In this document: positions 21,134 through 26,349 of the stretch, one piece after another | How positions within the stretch are numbered: position 1 is the stretch's first letter | Layout of the letters: each line of letters begins with the position of its first letter | Assembly: GCA_964506075.1 (NCBI GenBank) | Contig: CAZDKO010000001.1 | Span: forward strand, 25,637-89,636 | Source of the DNA: an uncultured bacterium | GTDB lineage: Bacteria; CAZDME01; JAYEMH01 | Reading direction: 5' to 3' | DNA length: 64,000 nt | Made by a program: the position numbers and the translations under genes | The notes under the pieces: generated by a model | Told to the model about the DNA's origin: nothing | Seen by the model: only the letters and a program-made list of their open reading frames with translations | Database searches by the model: none

Positions 21134-22846
21134 TTACTTATTGAGGTATTTTTTGATTTGTTCCAGGCTGTTCCGGGCGTCAAGGGCTTCCGGGGAAGAA
21201 GGATTAATCTCTATTACTTTCTTCCAGAGCGGGATAGCTCGTTCTAAATCGCCTTTATTGGCGTAAAGCATCCCGAGATTAAGATACCCTTTTAAATATT
21301 GAGGGTCAATTTTTATAGATTCCTGGTATTCTGCTTCAGCTTCTTTCCATTTTCCTTCCTGAGCATAAAAAAGCCCTAAAAGACAATAAGCCTCGGTAAG
21401 ACCCGGGTCAGATATCTTGGCCCGGCGGGCACATTCTTCCCCTTCTTTTAATCTTCCTTTCACCCAGTAGACCGCTCCCAGATTAACCAGGGCTTTAGCG
21501 TGGTCAGGTTGTAACTTAAGAAGGTTTCTAAAAGCTTTTTCTGCTTCTTCGTAGCTTCCTTCTCTTAAATAAATAGTGCCTAAATTATACCAGACCAGGA
21601 CTACCTCAGGATTATATTTCAAAATTTTTTGATACAGTTTAACCTCATTTTGCCATTGAAGGTTTTGTGTTACGGTGAGAGAGGCATAGTAGATAAAAAA
21701 AGGCATAAAGACAAAAATTAAAAATTTTTTCCGGTTGACCGCTTTTTCAATTATCCGGCCCAGGAGGGCCAGGAAGCCGATTGAAGGAATATATAACCAG
21801 TGCTCTGCTATCAAAGCATTAAGGCGCAATATATTCAAGAAAGGAAGGAGAAAGATAAAAAACCAGAAAGAGAAGAAGAAAGTAAATCGAGATTTATGAT
21901 AGCTCTTAATTGCCGCCCAGATAATTATAACCAGTAGGAAAGAAAAAATAATAAAGGCCGGGTCAAGAAACGATTTAACCAGATGATATCCTCTGGCCAT
22001 TTTAAGTTCCTGGGGGAATATGAGCAGGCCTAAATAAGAGAATAATATCTTTATTGAAGTAGCCAGTCTCAAGAAATAATCGCGGTTAAAATGGAAAGCC
22101 AGGTTAGTTTCGGTAAATTTAAGAAAATGAAAACGGAAATAAATGTATCCTAAAGCGGTGATAAAAAAAGGGGCCGGTTTTATTAAATTCCCCCCCTTTG
22201 AGGATTTTTCTCTAACGACGGGATTTATTTCCGTCTTCTCTTTGGCGAAACTTAATTCATACAGCAGCAGGATGAAAGGGAAAATCAAGGCCAATTCTTT
22301 AGAGAGCAGGGCACCCGTAAAGAATAACACGGAGCAGATGTAGCTAGAATTTGAATTTTTGCGGTAAGCAAGCAAAGAGAGCAGGATAAAAATAGTTACC
22401 AGGCTATCGGCTCTCCCGGCAATATAACTGACCGCTTCGGTATGTATCGGATGGATAGCAAAGAGTAACCCCGCCCAAAGCGCCGTCAGGTGTTTTTCTC
22501 CTATTTCAAGAACAAGAAAATAAACCAGGATAGAGGCCAGTAAATGAAGTATGAGATTGGTCAGGTGGTATCCCGCCGCCTTAAAATGCCAGATGTGATA
22601 ATCCAGAAGCAGGGTCAGCGTCTGCAAGGGGCGGTAGAAAGTACTTGCCTCTCCGGTAGTGTAAAAAAGATGATGAGTGAAAATATCCGGAATGAATTTC
22701 CAGTTTTGAATGAGCAGGTTTTTTTCTATTAATAAATGGTCATCCCACACAAATGGATTTTTTAGGGTATTAGAATATAAGGCGATACAGGAGACGCTGA
22801 TTAAGAATAACGCCAGGATAGTATTTTTATTCATTGGCTGTTTCAC
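21134..22846 (-). CDS. Polytopic membrane protein with a C-terminal TPR array (TMTC/PMT-like GT-C architecture), paralog 1
   Basis: About 11 predicted TM helices, with conserved [11 protein letters not shown] in the first loop. The C-terminal has about 5 TPR units (..[30 protein letters not shown]..). Confidence 0.5.
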   Translation of the reverse strand: [570 protein letters not shown]

Positions 22847-24497: not shown

Positions 24498-26349
24498 CAG
24501 TATCCCCTTCTAATTCAGATGTATCTTTTTTTAATTTTTCTAAATTATATTTTGCTTCCTGGTAATGCGGGTCAAGTTTTAAAGCTTTCATCCATTCTTT
24601 TTTGGCTTCATTTAGTTCATTCATTTCCGCATAGCATATCCCCAGGTTATTATGCAGTTCGGGAAAATTATTGTCAATAGATAACCCGGCCTTAAAGATA
24701 TCCCTGGCTTCTTCAATCTTTCCTTTCTGATAATAGAAGTTGCCTAATTTGTAGTAAGTATAAGCAAAACCCGGGTTTGTTTCCATCATTTTACGGTATA
24801 TCTGGACAGCTTTTTCATCTTCTCCTTTTTTGGAATATAGGTCGGCAAGGCTGAGATGAGCCTCTATATTCTCCGGGTCCGACTTTAATAAAATCTTCAG
24901 TTCTTCTTCAGCCTCATCTAATTTTCCGGTTTCAATTAGAACGGAAGCAAGGTTATGCCGGGCTTTAAAATATTGCGGGACCTTTTTTATAACTTTTTTT
25001 AAAAGAGCGGTTGCTTCAGGATATCTTTTTTGCTCGGAATATATCGAGGCAAGACAGATATCCATCCGGCTGGAATAAGGGGCTTTACGGGCGGTATATT
25101 CATAGAAAGTCAGAGGGTCTCTCCAGATTTGAATTTGTTTTATAGTCATATAAGAATAGATTACCAGAAGAAGGGTTAGAAAAAGCGGAATAAAGTTTTC
25201 TCCGATTTTTAGCTTTTCCATTGCCGGATGATTTTTTATTTTAAAAGCCAGCCAGGCCATAATAGCCAGAAAACCGGTTGAAGGCAGATAAAGCCAGTGT
25301 TCAGCCATCTGGGCGTTTAAGGGGATAATATTTAAAAAAGGGGAAAGCGTAATGACAAACAGTAAAGCAAAAAACCCCACGGCTTTATCTTTTCTGGAAA
25401 GTTTCAGGCAAAGATAAATAATAATTAGAATAAATATTAATGAAAAAATTACGCCAGAATCTAAAAAGCTTTCACTCCACGGGACGAATCTTTCCATATG
25501 GAGATTATAAGGAAATAAAAGAAGCAGGATATACTGGCTGATTATTTTTAGCTCGGTAATCATCCTTATCCCCCAGGACATATTCCACTGGTAGAAGTTT
25601 AAAGAATCGGCGGCGGTTAACTTAAGCCGGATAAACGCATATAAGAAGCCGATCATTAAGAACCATAAGAAAGGAAATAATTTTTGATTCAAACTTTCTT
25701 TTTTTAGAAAAATCAAGTTGTAAGCGAGGATTACAAAAGGAAAGACTAAATTTGACTCTCTGGAAAATAACGCCAGCAGGAATGAAAAAAGGGAAAGCGG
25801 GAATAAAAATTTGTTTCCTTTCTTCGCCTCAATATAAGTACTCAGTGCCAGTAAAATAAAAAGTGTCCCCAGAGGGTCGGCCCGCCCGGAAATATAGACG
25901 ACCGCCTCCGTCTGGACAGGGTGGACGAGGAAGAAAACCCCTCCCCATAAACTTATAAATAAATTTTTAAAAATTTGATAAAGAATTAAAGAAAACATAA
26001 CCCCACAGGAAATATGAATGAAACTATTAGACAGGTGATAACCGAAAGGATTTAGTCCCCAGAGGCGGTAATCCAGGGCGTAAGAAATCTCCTGTAGCGG
26101 GCGGTAGTATTTACTTTGTCCCTGGAGATGATGAAAAAGAAACCGGCTAAAAGAGAAATACCAGTTATGTAAACTTTTTATAAAATGGTTATCTTTAATT
26201 AAGTGGTCATCGTCCCAGACGAAATCGTTAGACCAGCTGAAAGAATAAACCGCTATTCCTATTAAAATTATTATCAGAAAATTTTTAAATAGTTGCGCCC
26301 GCATATCTTGTAAAAGACCAATTGTTTTTTGGTGTTTAAAATTGAGCAA
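24481..26349 (-). CDS. Polytopic membrane protein with a C-terminal TPR array, paralog 3
   Basis: Same architecture; loop motif NDFVWDDDHLI. The TPR units run to a C-terminal acidic tail. Confidence 0.5.
   Translation of the reverse strand: MLNFKHQKTIGLLQDMRAQLFKNFLIIILIGIAVYSFSWSNDFVWDDDHLIKDNHFIKSLHNWYFSFSRFLFHHLQGQSKYYRPLQEISYALDYRLWGLNPFGYHLSNSFIHISCGVMFSLILYQIFKNLFISLWGGVFFLVHPVQTEAVVYISGRADPLGTLFILLALSTYIEAKKGNKFLFPLSLFSFLLALFSRESNLVFPFVILAYNLIFLKKESLNQKLFPFLWFLMIGFLYAFIRLKLTAADSLNFYQWNMSWGIRMITELKIISQYILLLLFPYNLHMERFVPWSESFLDSGVIFSLIFILIIIYLCLKLSRKDKAVGFFALLFVITLSPFLNIIPLNAQMAEHWLYLPSTGFLAIMAWLAFKIKNHPAMEKLKIGENFIPLFLTLLLVIYSYMTIKQIQIWRDPLTFYEYTARKAPYSSRMDICLASIYSEQKRYPEATALLKKVIKKVPQYFKARHNLASVLIETGKLDEAEEELKILLKSDPENIEAHLSLADLYSKKGEDEKAVQIYRKMMETNPGFAYTYYKLGNFYYQKGKIEEARDIFKAGLSIDNNFPELHNNLGICYAEMNELNEAKKEWMKALKLDPHYQEAKYNLEKLKKDTSELEGDTDELTD

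What the first reader, a model, noticed from the sequence alone, without database searches (positions are those of the whole stretch)
21134..26349. Three tandem paralogs of a polytopic-membrane plus TPR protein with the TMTC/PMT-like glycosyltransferase layout
All three (570, 556 and 622 aa) share a conserved first-loop motif N-(P/D)-F-(V/I)-W-D-D-(H/E/D)-x-L-I, roughly 11 TM helices and 4-6 C-terminal TPRs. Their starts overlap, so they form an operon. The architecture is that of eukaryotic TMTC O-mannosyltransferases (GT-C fold, lumenal DD/DE motif, TPR tail). Immediately upstream lies a GT2 polyprenyl-phosphate-sugar-synthase-like gene plus further GT-C-like proteins. A lipid-linked donor feeding three substrate-specific periplasmic transferases is a coherent reading.
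Basis: partly seen in the sequence, partly recalled or inferred. Interest (0 to 1): 0.55.

Follow-up and report, generated by a model that had tools for sequence, protein, structure and literature searches.

The report
Three tandem bacterial TMTC-like glycosyltransferases
Three neighbouring genes in an Omnitrophota bacterium encode membrane enzymes related to the animal TMTC protein O-mannosyltransferases; they most likely attach sugars to proteins outside the cytoplasm and belong to a very large bacterial family that databases label only as "TPR proteins".

Summary
Three overlapping minus-strand genes (A 21134-22846, B 22827-24497, C 24481-26349) are paralogs, 34-37% identical. Each has an 11-helix membrane domain with an invariant WDD loop, followed by 4-5 C-terminal TPRs.

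The TMTC reading is right, and it is homology, not just layout. A profile of the membrane domain aligns with animal TMTC1-4 over 385 columns (hhalign probability 100%, E=1e-49). The AlphaFold model matches only GT-C glycosyltransferases in the PDB. Charge bias places the DD loop and the TPRs in the periplasm.

They are not strict TMTC members. No DUF1736 hit was found, the TMTC "DW" motif is replaced by LHME, and ERxxY is replaced by EHWxY.

The family is very large (about 130,000 clusters at 50% identity). It is expanded in Omnitrophota, with up to 9 tandem copies.

The proposed link to the GT2 gene is only weakly supported. The GT2 does resemble ArnC, DPMS and GtrB, and it sits in the same 15-gene operon. 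However, it belongs to a conserved radical-SAM sugar-modification cassette that usually lacks TMTC-like genes.

In other genomes the commonest neighbour is a Ser/Thr-rich type IV pilin gene (20 of 79 loci). This is the arrangement known for pilA-tfpW and points to protein acceptors.

Verdict: a new member of a known kind, of moderate interest.

The parts
24481..26349 (-). Paralog C (622 aa from the TTG start; 607 aa from the ATG at 26304). Membrane GT-C domain is residues 1-409 (25123-26349); 5 TPRs plus cap are residues 410-622 (24484-25122). First of the three to be transcribed.
22827..24497 (-). Paralog B (556 aa). Membrane GT-C domain is residues 1-386 (23340-24497); 4 TPRs plus cap are residues 387-556 (22830-23339). 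Overlaps C by 17 nt.
21134..22846 (-). Paralog A (570 aa, GTG start). Membrane GT-C domain is residues 1-398 (21653-22846); 4 TPRs plus cap are residues 399-570 (21137-21652). Overlaps B by 20 nt. It is the only one of 111 family members with Lys in place of the near-invariant His282, and it has Ala in place of Glu284.
26209..26217 (-). WDD codons of C (W45 D46 D47), the predicted catalytic acidic pair in periplasmic loop 1.
24387..24395 (-). WDD codons of B (W35 D36 D37).
22739..22747 (-). WDD codons of A (W34 D35 D36).
29459..30238 (-). GT2 glycosyltransferase (259 aa) in the same operon. It resembles polyprenyl-phosphate sugar synthases and is a candidate maker of the lipid-linked donor. 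This link is inferred.
26356..39996 (-). The upstream 12 genes of the same operon: B12-radical SAM, a weakly YfhO-like 764-aa membrane protein, DUF2079, GT9, radical SAM/SPASM, E1 alpha, E1 beta, GT2, radical SAM/SPASM, two 173-aa membrane proteins, and a radical SAM enzyme. Intergenic gaps run from -25 to +37 nt. Most of this is a sugar-modification cassette that recurs in other metagenome contigs.

Best explanation
A, B and C are three paralogous inner-membrane glycosyltransferases of the GT-C fold. They form a bacterial sister family of the animal TMTC protein O-mannosyltransferases.

Each has 11 transmembrane helices, with the N-terminus in the cytoplasm. The active site is built on the periplasmic face from the conserved loops: WDD and YRPLQ in loop 1, GRAD in loop 2, (K/R)E in loop 3, LHM(E) in loop 4 and AEHWxY in loop 5.

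By analogy with TMTC, PMT and ArnT, the enzyme takes a single sugar from a polyprenyl-phosphate-sugar that has been flipped to the periplasmic leaflet. It transfers that sugar to an acceptor held by the periplasmic C-terminal TPR solenoid. The acceptor is most likely a secreted or surface protein, such as a type IV pilin or pseudopilin.

The three paralogs probably differ in acceptor, or in site, because their TPR domains have diverged more than their catalytic domains. The donor may be made by the GT2 and the radical-SAM sugar-tailoring enzymes encoded upstream in the same operon.

What is shown: homology, fold, topology, motif conservation and operon packing. What is inferred: catalytic activity, the type of donor, a protein acceptor, and coupling to the GT2.
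For: - **Homology.** hhalign of the family's membrane-domain profile against human and fly TMTC N-domains gives probability 100%, E=1.2e-49, over 385 aligned columns. Shared blocks include LLFA(I/V)[8 protein letters not shown]..GRAD, F.(W)DD..I..N, YRPL, YH..N..LH, KE and AE(H/R).LY.PS.G.
- **Fold.** The AF2 models have pLDDT 92 and 88.5 and pTM 0.90. For the membrane-only model, the top 33 PDB Foldseek hits are all GT-C enzymes (STT3/AglB/PglB, ArnT, Pmt1/2/4, Emb, AftA, DPY19, GPI-MT-I). Transporter hits have probability below 0.15.
- **Motif conservation across 111 members.** D35 and D36 are present in 110/110. R72, P73, H94, R145, Y352 and W398 are present in 111/111. E184 is present in 109 and H349 in 110.
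- **Topology.** The K+R fraction is 0.237 in the loops assigned to the cytoplasm and 0.073 in those assigned to the periplasm.
- **TPRs.** Pfam E-values are 1e-21 to 1e-29. TPR-domain identity among the paralogs is 27-31%, against 36-40% for the membrane domain.
- **Protein-acceptor clue.** The Pfam family most often found beside family members is N_methyl, the prepilin motif (24 of 148 flanking ORFs). In 20 of 79 loci a pilin gene lies within 300 bp on the same strand, and the upstream pilins are 20-24% Ser+Thr. This is the pilA-tfpW arrangement. TfpW is a GT-C enzyme with 11 TM helices, a DDX motif and a periplasmic TPR domain, and it is required for pilin glycosylation. The window itself carries a type IV pilus/T2SS-like cluster at 302-11803.
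- **Donor clue.** The GT2 in the same operon has ArnC, DPMS and GtrB as its best solved relatives (E=5e-12 to 4e-10).
Against: - No biochemical data exist for this family.
- The three genes are not next to a pilin gene. The nearest pilin-like gene in the window is about 20 kb away.
- A, B and C do not fall in the somewhat tighter pilin-linked subgroup.
- Linkage to the GT2 cassette is not conserved.
- TMTC motif M5 (DW within DUF1736) is absent. The phosphate-binding Arg of ERxxY is His here, so donor chemistry may differ from Dol-P-Man.
- TPR domains in other periplasmic systems (BcsC, PgaA, AlgK; from established knowledge) handle polysaccharides, so a TPR domain does not prove a protein acceptor.
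- Paralog A lacks the near-invariant His282 and might be catalytically altered.
Confidence: 0.6

Rival explanations
1. They are the same GT-C enzymes, but the acceptor is not a protein. They would decorate a lipid or glycan (lipid A/LPS core, a polysaccharide or another glycolipid), as ArnT, Emb/Aft or YfhO do. The TPR domain would then act as a scaffold for a polysaccharide or for partner proteins.
For: - The trio closes an operon built around sugar-tailoring enzymes, a GT9 heptosyltransferase-like gene and other GT-C-like membrane proteins.
- In other contigs the cassette sits among nucleotide-sugar genes typical of O-antigen or EPS clusters.
- ArnT and the Emb proteins are among the structural matches.
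- No pilin gene is adjacent in this window.
Against: - By sequence, the closest characterised relatives are the TMTCs, which are protein O-mannosyltransferases.
- Across the family the dominant conserved neighbour is a pilin gene, not a glycan gene.
- The cassette and the TMTC-like genes are rarely linked.
Confidence: 0.22
2. They are oligosaccharyltransferases. They would move a preassembled glycan en bloc from undecaprenyl-pyrophosphate to proteins, as PglB/STT3 do (and functionally PglL/TfpO), instead of moving single sugars from a monophosphate carrier.
For: - STT3, AglB and PglB are among the best Foldseek hits.
- The upstream operon could assemble a complex glycan.
- TfpW has been proposed to act partly as an oligosaccharyltransferase.
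Against: - Sequence homology is to TMTC and PMT, which use a monophosphate-linked single sugar.
- There is no STT3-type C-terminal domain or WWDYG motif; the C-terminus is made of TPRs only.
- The GT2 in the operon resembles polyprenyl-monophosphate sugar synthases.
Confidence: 0.1
3. They are non-catalytic membrane-anchored TPR scaffolds or chaperones that only retain a GT-C-like fold. A non-catalytic role of this kind was once proposed for the TMTCs in ER calcium and folding control (from established knowledge).
For: - Paralog A has lost the near-invariant His282 and Glu284.
- Pfam and NCBIfam see only the TPRs in most members.
Against: The catalytic-type residues are essentially invariant across 111 members, which points to selection on an active site. 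These include the DD pair, YRP, RAD, KE and EH..Y. All three window paralogs keep the DD pair, RxD, K/R-E and EH..Y.
Confidence: 0.05

Closest known systems
Animal TMTC1-4 (CAZy GT105; ER protein O-mannosyltransferases acting on cadherins and protocadherins)
   Same: - There is direct full-length homology of the membrane domain (hhalign E=1.2e-49, 25% identity).
- Both have 11 TM helices with a cytoplasmic N-terminus, a DD pair in loop 1, YRP, HP.HTE.V..GRAD and KE, plus a C-terminal TPR domain on the non-cytoplasmic side.
- The predicted mechanism is the same: a polyprenyl-phosphate sugar donor and an acceptor bound by the TPRs.
   Different: - No Pfam DUF1736 match was found in any of 23 members.
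- The loop-4 motif is LHM(E) instead of (C/S)(Y/F)DW, and loop 5 is AEHW.Y instead of AER..Y. The His-Lys of SHKSYRP is absent.
- There are only 4-5 TPRs.
- The setting is the bacterial periplasm, presumably with an undecaprenyl carrier.
- The sugar and the acceptors are unknown.
Pseudomonas aeruginosa TfpW (pilin D-arabinofuranosyl transferase)
   Same: The architecture described for TfpW is the same: a GT-C enzyme with a cytoplasmic N-terminus, 11 TM helices, a DDX motif in periplasmic loop 1 and a periplasmic C-terminal TPR domain. Its gene lies directly downstream of pilA. Twenty of 79 related Omnitrophota loci show the same pilin-transferase adjacency.
   Different: - Sequence homology to TfpW could not be tested because no sequence was available.
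- TfpW's YX6PFX7P motif is not evident here.
- The three window genes are not pilin-adjacent.
PMT/POMT (GT39) and the Pfam PMT / PMT_2 families
   Same: They belong to the same GT-C clan. Paralog A just passes the Pfam PMT threshold (23.1 against 22.7 bits). Five of 23 family members hit PMT_2 and four hit PMT. Pmt1, Pmt2 and Pmt4 structures are among the fold matches.
   Different: There is no MIR domain, and the C-terminus is a TPR domain instead. B and C do not reach any PMT threshold.
ArnT (GT83, undecaprenyl-phosphate-L-Ara4N:lipid A transferase)
   Same: It has a GT-C fold with a periplasmic active site and a monophosphate-linked single-sugar donor. It is a top structural match (5f15 and 5ezm). 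The operon's GT2 resembles ArnC.
   Different: ArnT has a periplasmic alpha/beta domain instead of TPRs, and its acceptor is a lipid. There is no sequence-level match.

Membership tests
GT-C fold glycosyltransferases (STT3/ArnT/PMT type) | A polytopic membrane fold shared with solved GT-C enzymes | tested here: met
   For the membrane-only AF2 model (pLDDT 88.5), the top 33 PDB Foldseek hits are all GT-C enzymes, with TM-score about 0.5 when normalised by query length. Transporter hits have probability below 0.15.
GT-C fold glycosyltransferases (STT3/ArnT/PMT type) | Acidic catalytic residue(s) in the first extracytoplasmic loop | tested here: met
   The DD pair directly follows TM1 and is present in 110/110 aligned members. 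The loop is assigned to the periplasm by positive-inside bias, with K+R fractions of 0.237 and 0.073, and by homology.
GT-C fold glycosyltransferases (STT3/ArnT/PMT type) | Use of a polyprenyl-phosphate-linked sugar donor | not testable with these tools
   This is inferred only. An ArnC/DPMS/GtrB-like GT2 lies in the same operon, but the linkage is not conserved.
TMTC (GT105) | An N-terminal 11-TM domain homologous to TMTC1-4 | tested here: met
   hhalign probability 100%, E=1.2e-49, 385 columns spanning TM1 to TM11.
TMTC (GT105) | A DUF1736 (PF08409) loop between TM7 and TM8 carrying the DW motif (M5) | tested here: not met
   No DUF1736 hit in A, B or C at E<=10, nor in any of 23 members at E<=0.01. 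The aligned segment reads P..LHM(E)(Y/R) instead of P..L(C/S)(Y/F)DW.
TMTC (GT105) | Motifs M1 (DD), M2 (SHKSYRP), M3 (RxD), M4 (KE), M6 (PxxP) and M7 (ERxxY) | tested here: inconclusive
   M1, M3 and M4 are present. M2 is reduced to (F/Y)YRP without the His-Lys. Of M6 only the first Pro is invariant. M7 reads EHWxY, with His in 110/111 where TMTC has Arg.
TMTC (GT105) | A C-terminal TPR domain on the non-cytoplasmic side | tested here: met
   4-5 TPRs. An odd number of TM helices together with the charge bias places them in the periplasm. From my own knowledge, not checked here, animal TMTCs have more repeats than this.
TMTC (GT105) | O-mannosylation of cadherin-type domains from Dol-P-Man | not testable with these tools
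   No biochemical data are available. A bacterium would use a different carrier and different acceptors.
TfpW-type pilin glycosyltransferases | GT-C with 11 TM helices, a DDX motif and a periplasmic TPR domain | tested here: met
   The architecture matches the published description (one search compared).
TfpW-type pilin glycosyltransferases | Gene adjacent to the pilin gene it modifies | tested here: not met
   There is no pilin-like ORF within 20 kb of the trio. However, 20 of 79 loci holding other family members do have one within 300 bp.
TfpW-type pilin glycosyltransferases | Sequence homology to TfpW | not tested
   No TfpW sequence could be obtained with the tools.
PMT (GT39) | Pfam PMT domain plus lumenal MIR domains | tested here: not met
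   Only A reaches the PMT threshold, and only marginally (23.1 against 22.7 bits). No MIR hit was found.

The most novel reading that the evidence does not exclude
The bacterial TMTC-like family could be a widespread but unrecognised periplasmic protein O-glycosylation system whose ancestral substrates are type IV pilins and pseudopilins. Under this reading, the large paralog arrays in Omnitrophota (three here, up to nine elsewhere) are sets of acceptor-specific enzymes that diversify the cell surface of these host-attached nanobacteria. The animal cadherin O-mannosylation enzymes would then descend from this bacterial pilin-glycosylating lineage. In this window the array would draw on an unusual sugar, tailored by radical SAM and TPP-dependent enzymes and made on a polyprenyl-phosphate carrier by the upstream cassette.
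Probability: 0.25. Interest if true: 0.7.

Novelty: new member of a known kind. Interest (0 to 1): 0.42.

Why it matters
TMTC enzymes were recognised only recently in animals. They have no solved structure (none was found in the PDB by sequence or by fold), and the way they recognise acceptors is unknown.

This work adds three things. First, it shows that a very large bacterial family, labelled merely "tetratricopeptide repeat protein", is homologous to the TMTCs over the whole catalytic domain. The family has about 130,000 clusters at 50% identity. Second, it maps which catalytic motifs are shared and which differ. Third, it shows that many family members sit beside Ser/Thr-rich pilin genes.

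Together these offer a tractable bacterial model for TMTC-type catalysis and for acceptor selection by TPR domains. They also give a testable hypothesis for surface-protein glycosylation in Omnitrophota, and a concrete way to improve annotation of the family. For this particular trio the result is solid but incremental.

Tried and rejected
- **Sequence searches of the PDB.** A single sequence and the family profile both found nothing.
- **Foldseek with the full-length model.** It returned only TPR proteins, so the membrane domain had to be modelled and searched on its own.
- **Crude hydropathy scan.** It gave fragmented, uninterpretable segments. It was replaced by the AF2 helices plus positive-inside counting.
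- **Conservation of the window's operon neighbours next to family members.** Essentially absent. Among 79 loci, relatives were found in GT2 2, GT9 2, DUF2079 1, B12-radical SAM 2, and none for the rest.
- **The reverse test, starting from the radical SAM gene next to C.** It found a conserved cassette, but TMTC-like genes adjoin it in only 2 loci. I therefore rejected the idea that GT2 and the trio form a conserved module.
- **Promoter and terminator consensus scans.** Results are at chance level (48 sites against 49.6 expected; 23 against 24.0) and are not used.
- **Exact-sequence look-up of A.** Not on record. B was found only on a 4.6-kb Logan contig, so the source organism is inferred from homologs only (Omnitrophota).
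- **Whether A, B and C are recent duplicates or belong to the pilin-linked subgroup.** Neither holds. The family is star-like at 35-43% identity.
- **A transporter assignment for the membrane domain.** Rejected.
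Full report
**1. The observation**

The window holds three ORFs at exactly the reported coordinates, all on the minus strand:
- A: 21134-22846, 570 aa, GTG start.
- B: 22827-24497, 556 aa, ATG start.
- C: 24481-26349, 622 aa, TTG start.

They are transcribed in the order C, B, A. The stop/start overlaps are 17 nt and 20 nt. Pairwise identity is 34-37%. Within the window the membrane domains find only each other, with phmmer E-values of 1e-61 to 1e-80. The first-loop motif is present in all three: [22 protein letters not shown] and NDFVWDDDHLI. 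The WDD codons lie at 22739-22747, 24387-24395 and 26209-26217.

Pfam confirms the C-terminal TPRs. The model and alignment give four TPRs plus a capping helix in A and B. C carries one extra 34-residue repeat. The only caveat concerns start codons: another gene caller starts C at the ATG 15 codons further in.

**2. What the membrane domain is**

Standard libraries barely recognise it.
- A passes the Pfam PMT threshold by under one bit (23.1 against 22.7). B and C hit nothing relevant.
- NCBIfam reports only TPR-based matches.
- Across 23 family members, 5 hit PMT_2, 4 hit PMT and none hits DUF1736.
- Sequence searches of the PDB find nothing.

Structure prediction and profile comparison are decisive.
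- AlphaFold2 on a 47-sequence alignment gives pLDDT 92 and pTM 0.90 for A. The membrane domain modelled alone gives pLDDT 88.5.
- Foldseek with the full-length model is swamped by TPR proteins. With the membrane domain alone, the top 33 PDB hits are all GT-C glycosyltransferases: STT3/AglB/PglB, ArnT, Pmt1/2/4, EmbA/B/C, AftA, DPY19 and GPI-MT-I. Transporter hits have probability below 0.15.
- I rebuilt the N-terminal domains of human TMTC1-4 and fly TMTC1 and TMTC4 from the supplementary alignment of Eisenhaber et al. 2021 (PMC7801869). I compared them with the family profile by hhalign. The result was probability 100%, E=1.2e-49, 385 aligned columns and 25% identity, running from TM1 to TM11.

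Shared blocks are obvious by eye. For example, TMTC reads [21 protein letters not shown] where paralog A reads [21 protein letters not shown]. TMTC reads AERVLYxPSxGF where the family reads AEHWLYLPSIGF. These proteins are therefore true homologs of the TMTCs, not merely look-alikes.

**3. Topology**

The AF2 helices, read alongside the TMTC alignment, give 11 TM helices.
- Periplasmic loops: EL1 (30-89, carrying WDD and YRPLQ), EL2 (HPxHTEAV..GRAD), EL3 (SKE), EL4 (242-297, carrying LHME and a hydrophobic helix that does not span the membrane) and EL5 (AEHWxY).
- Across 111 family members the K+R fraction is 0.237 in the loops assigned to the cytoplasm and 0.073 in those assigned to the periplasm. 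The inverted topology would break the positive-inside rule.
- The DD loop and the TPR domain are therefore periplasmic.

**4. Active-site conservation and differences from TMTC**

Conservation in 111 members (79 genomic loci plus the window):

| Residue(s) | Present in |
|---|---|
| D35, D36 | 110/110 |
| R72, P73, H94, R145, Y352, W398 | 111/111 |
| H349 | 110/111 |
| E184 | 109/111 |
| H282 | 108/111 |

Against the seven TMTC motifs:
- M1 (DD), M3 (RxD) and M4 (KE) are kept.
- M2 is reduced to (F/Y)YRP, without the His-Lys.
- M5 (DW within DUF1736) is replaced by LHM(E)(Y/R).
- M7 (ERxxY) reads EHWxY, with His where TMTC and STT3 have the phosphate-binding Arg.

Together with the missing DUF1736 hit, this means the family should not be filed as TMTC in the strict sense. 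It is a bacterial sister family, and its donor chemistry may differ.

Paralog A is unusual. It is the only one of 111 sequences with Lys at position 282, and it has Ala at 284. B and C carry the consensus.

**5. Size and distribution of the family**

- A profile search of 1.84 billion representative proteins finds 129,684 clusters at E<=1e-3 and 55,704 at E<=1e-30.
- The closest relatives are almost all from Candidatus Omnitrophota and are annotated "tetratricopeptide repeat protein".
- Tandem arrays are common. Eighteen of 79 loci hold two or more copies, with up to nine in L028. Single MAGs carry at least 7-12 copies across their contigs.
- The family is star-like at 35-43% identity. A, B and C are no closer to each other than to homologs in other genomes, so the trio is an old, diversified set.
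- The TPR domains (27-31% identity) have diverged more than the catalytic domains (36-40%).

**6. Genomic context in the window**

The trio closes a run of 15 minus-strand genes from 39996 to 21134. Gaps between them range from -25 to +37 nt. In order of transcription they are:
- a B12-radical SAM enzyme;
- a 764-aa membrane protein with a sub-threshold YfhO match;
- DUF2079 (199 bits);
- GT9;
- a radical SAM/SPASM enzyme;
- TPP-dependent E1 alpha and E1 beta;
- GT2;
- a second radical SAM/SPASM enzyme;
- two paralogous 173-aa membrane proteins with no family match;
- a radical SAM enzyme;
- then C, B and A.

The top seven solved relatives of the GT2 are all polyprenyl-phosphate sugar synthases: ArnC, Pyrococcus DPMS and GtrB, with E-values of 5e-12 to 4e-10. 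Promoter and terminator consensus scans are at chance level. A tRNA-Val gene (20969-21045, plus strand) lies just beyond the end of A.

**7. Is the link between GT2 and the trio conserved?**

No.
- Relatives of the window's GT2 lie within 10 kb of a family member in only 2 of 79 loci. The other operon genes are almost never there.
- Starting instead from the radical SAM gene next to C, 44 metagenome loci were recovered. They reveal a recurring cassette: GT9, radical SAM/SPASM, E1 alpha, E1 beta, GT2, an optional second radical SAM/SPASM, the optional pair of 173-aa membrane proteins, the radical SAM enzyme, and B12-radical SAM.
- Of the 24 loci of at least 5 kb, only two (L086, L087) have TMTC-like genes beside the cassette, and there they are on the opposite strand.
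- The cassette sits among nucleotide-sugar genes. Of 144 neighbouring ORFs, 17 hit GDP-mannose dehydratase/epimerase, 12 hit RmlD, about 10 hit methyltransferases, 6 hit DegT, 5 hit PMT_2 and 6 hit T2SSE.

The cassette is therefore a sugar-tailoring and glycan module in its own right. In this genome it has been joined to five GT-C-type membrane proteins. That fits a model in which it supplies a lipid-linked donor, but this is inference.

**8. A clue to the acceptor**

A Pfam tally of 148 ORFs flanking family members in the 79 loci puts PF07963 (the prepilin N-terminal methylation motif) first. It occurs in 24 ORFs; the next family occurs in 7.

A motif scan adds detail:
- Twenty of 79 loci have a pilin-like gene within 300 bp of a family gene. 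There are 26 such ORFs, 18 upstream and 8 downstream.
- All 60 pilin-like ORFs in these loci lie on the same strand as the family gene.
- Beyond 1 kb the density is about one pilin-like ORF per 30 kb, which would predict roughly 2-3 adjacent cases. That estimate is my own rough arithmetic from the counts.

The upstream pilins are conserved, about 130 aa long and 20-24% Ser+Thr. They begin MNRKGFTLVEIMIVVAIIALLAAIAVPNL and end TYTATTGGVLTPL. A second conserved pilin often follows the transferase gene.

This is the arrangement of pilA-tfpW in Pseudomonas aeruginosa. TfpW is described as a GT-C enzyme with 11 TM helices, a DDX motif in periplasmic loop 1 and a periplasmic TPR domain, and it is required for pilin glycosylation (bioRxiv 10.1101/2020.04.19.049825).

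The window's trio is not pilin-adjacent. Its only pilin-like ORF is at 302-844, within a type IV pilus/T2SS-like cluster. A, B and C also do not belong to the slightly tighter pilin-linked subgroup. The pilin link therefore supports protein acceptors for the family as a whole. It does not identify the acceptors of A, B and C.

**9. Most likely mechanism**

Each protein is a periplasm-facing GT-C glycosyltransferase. It takes a sugar from a polyprenyl-phosphate carrier at a site formed by EL1-EL5. It transfers the sugar to an acceptor presented by its TPR solenoid. The acceptor is most likely Ser/Thr residues of a secreted or surface protein. The three paralogs probably differ in acceptor.

- Shown: homology, fold, topology, conserved motifs, operon packing.
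- Inferred: catalytic activity, a monophosphate-linked single-sugar donor, protein acceptors, and supply of the donor by the upstream GT2 cassette.

The rivals are a glycan or lipid acceptor (0.22), en bloc oligosaccharyl transfer (0.10) and a non-catalytic scaffold (0.05).

**10. Novelty and verdict**

That prokaryotes have TMTC homologs has been noted in passing (PMC7801869). A bacterial GT-C enzyme with a TPR domain has been studied, namely TfpW. My searches found no paper describing this family, its size, its motif differences or its pilin linkage.

The trio itself is a new member of a known kind. The proposed coupling to the GT2 is plausible but not conserved.

Interest is moderate (0.42). 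The wider family-level hypothesis, with probability about 0.25, would merit more attention.

Noticed in passing
related loci L006-L065 (for example L012:6908-7309 and 9542-9985; L038:9416-9817 and 12039-12488): A three-gene unit is conserved in many Omnitrophota genomes: an S/T-rich type IV pilin, a TMTC-like GT-C/TPR gene, and a second pilin class that ends ...ADHNYQ...TDFK. In 20 of 79 loci a pilin gene lies within 300 bp of the family gene on the same strand.
   Followed up: partly
L028:4498-20940; also L014, L069, L075, L070: There are very large tandem arrays of the same family: nine consecutive copies in L028, five in L014, and four each in L069 and L070. Single MAGs carry at least 7-12 copies.
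   Followed up: partly
window 26356-39996 (-), and loci L081-L124: A conserved cassette (GT9, two radical SAM/SPASM enzymes, TPP-dependent E1 alpha/beta, an ArnC/DPMS-like GT2, a 294-aa radical SAM enzyme and a B12-radical SAM enzyme) recurs in 44 metagenome loci. It sits among nucleotide-sugar genes. Its product is unknown; it is possibly an unusual branched or methylated sugar.
   Followed up: partly
window 27261-27782 and 27785-28306 (-): Two adjacent 173-aa proteins have N-terminal TM helices and a C-terminal region that looks like a winged helix. Neither matches any Pfam or NCBIfam family. The pair is conserved within the cassette in L087 and L096.
   Followed up: no
window 21995-22003 (-), residues 282-284 of paralog A: Paralog A reads L-K-M-A-R where the family reads L-H-M-E-(Y/R). 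It is the only one of 111 members with Lys in place of the near-invariant His, so it may be catalytically divergent.
   Followed up: partly
window 302-11803 (+): A type IV pilus/T2SS-like cluster: a minor pilin (N_methyl/T2SSJ), a 1154-aa protein with a PilX_N domain, a GH2-like protein, PilM, a T2SSM-like protein, and a secretin carrying AMIN and TPR domains.
   Followed up: partly
window 50450-51658 and 51816-53090 (+): Two adjacent proteins carry C-terminal PEP-CTERM sorting motifs. From established knowledge, these are exosortase substrates and are usually glycosylated surface proteins, so they are possible acceptors.
   Followed up: no
window 34320-36257 and 36238-38532 (-): Two further large polytopic membrane proteins lie in the same operon: DUF2079 (199 bits) and a 764-aa protein with only a sub-threshold match to the C-terminus of YfhO (27.1 against 28.5 bits). 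Both are probably additional GT-C-type transferases. In L076 a DUF2079 gene also directly precedes a family member.
   Followed up: partly
window 20969-21045 (+): A tRNA-Val(CAC) gene lies convergent with, and 89 nt beyond, the stop codon of paralog A. An S-adenosylmethionine decarboxylase gene (20401-20856) lies just before it. AdoMet_dc also appears next to family members in two other loci.
   Followed up: no
window 44986-47709 (+): A 907-aa protein combines an N-terminal glycoside-hydrolase-like region (GH10/GH42 hits) with a sulfatase domain.
   Followed up: no
window 11991-14518 (+): DNA polymerase I is split into two overlapping ORFs: a 5'-3' exonuclease (11991-12860) and a polymerase with a 3'-5' exonuclease-like domain (12851-14518, TTG start).
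   Followed up: no
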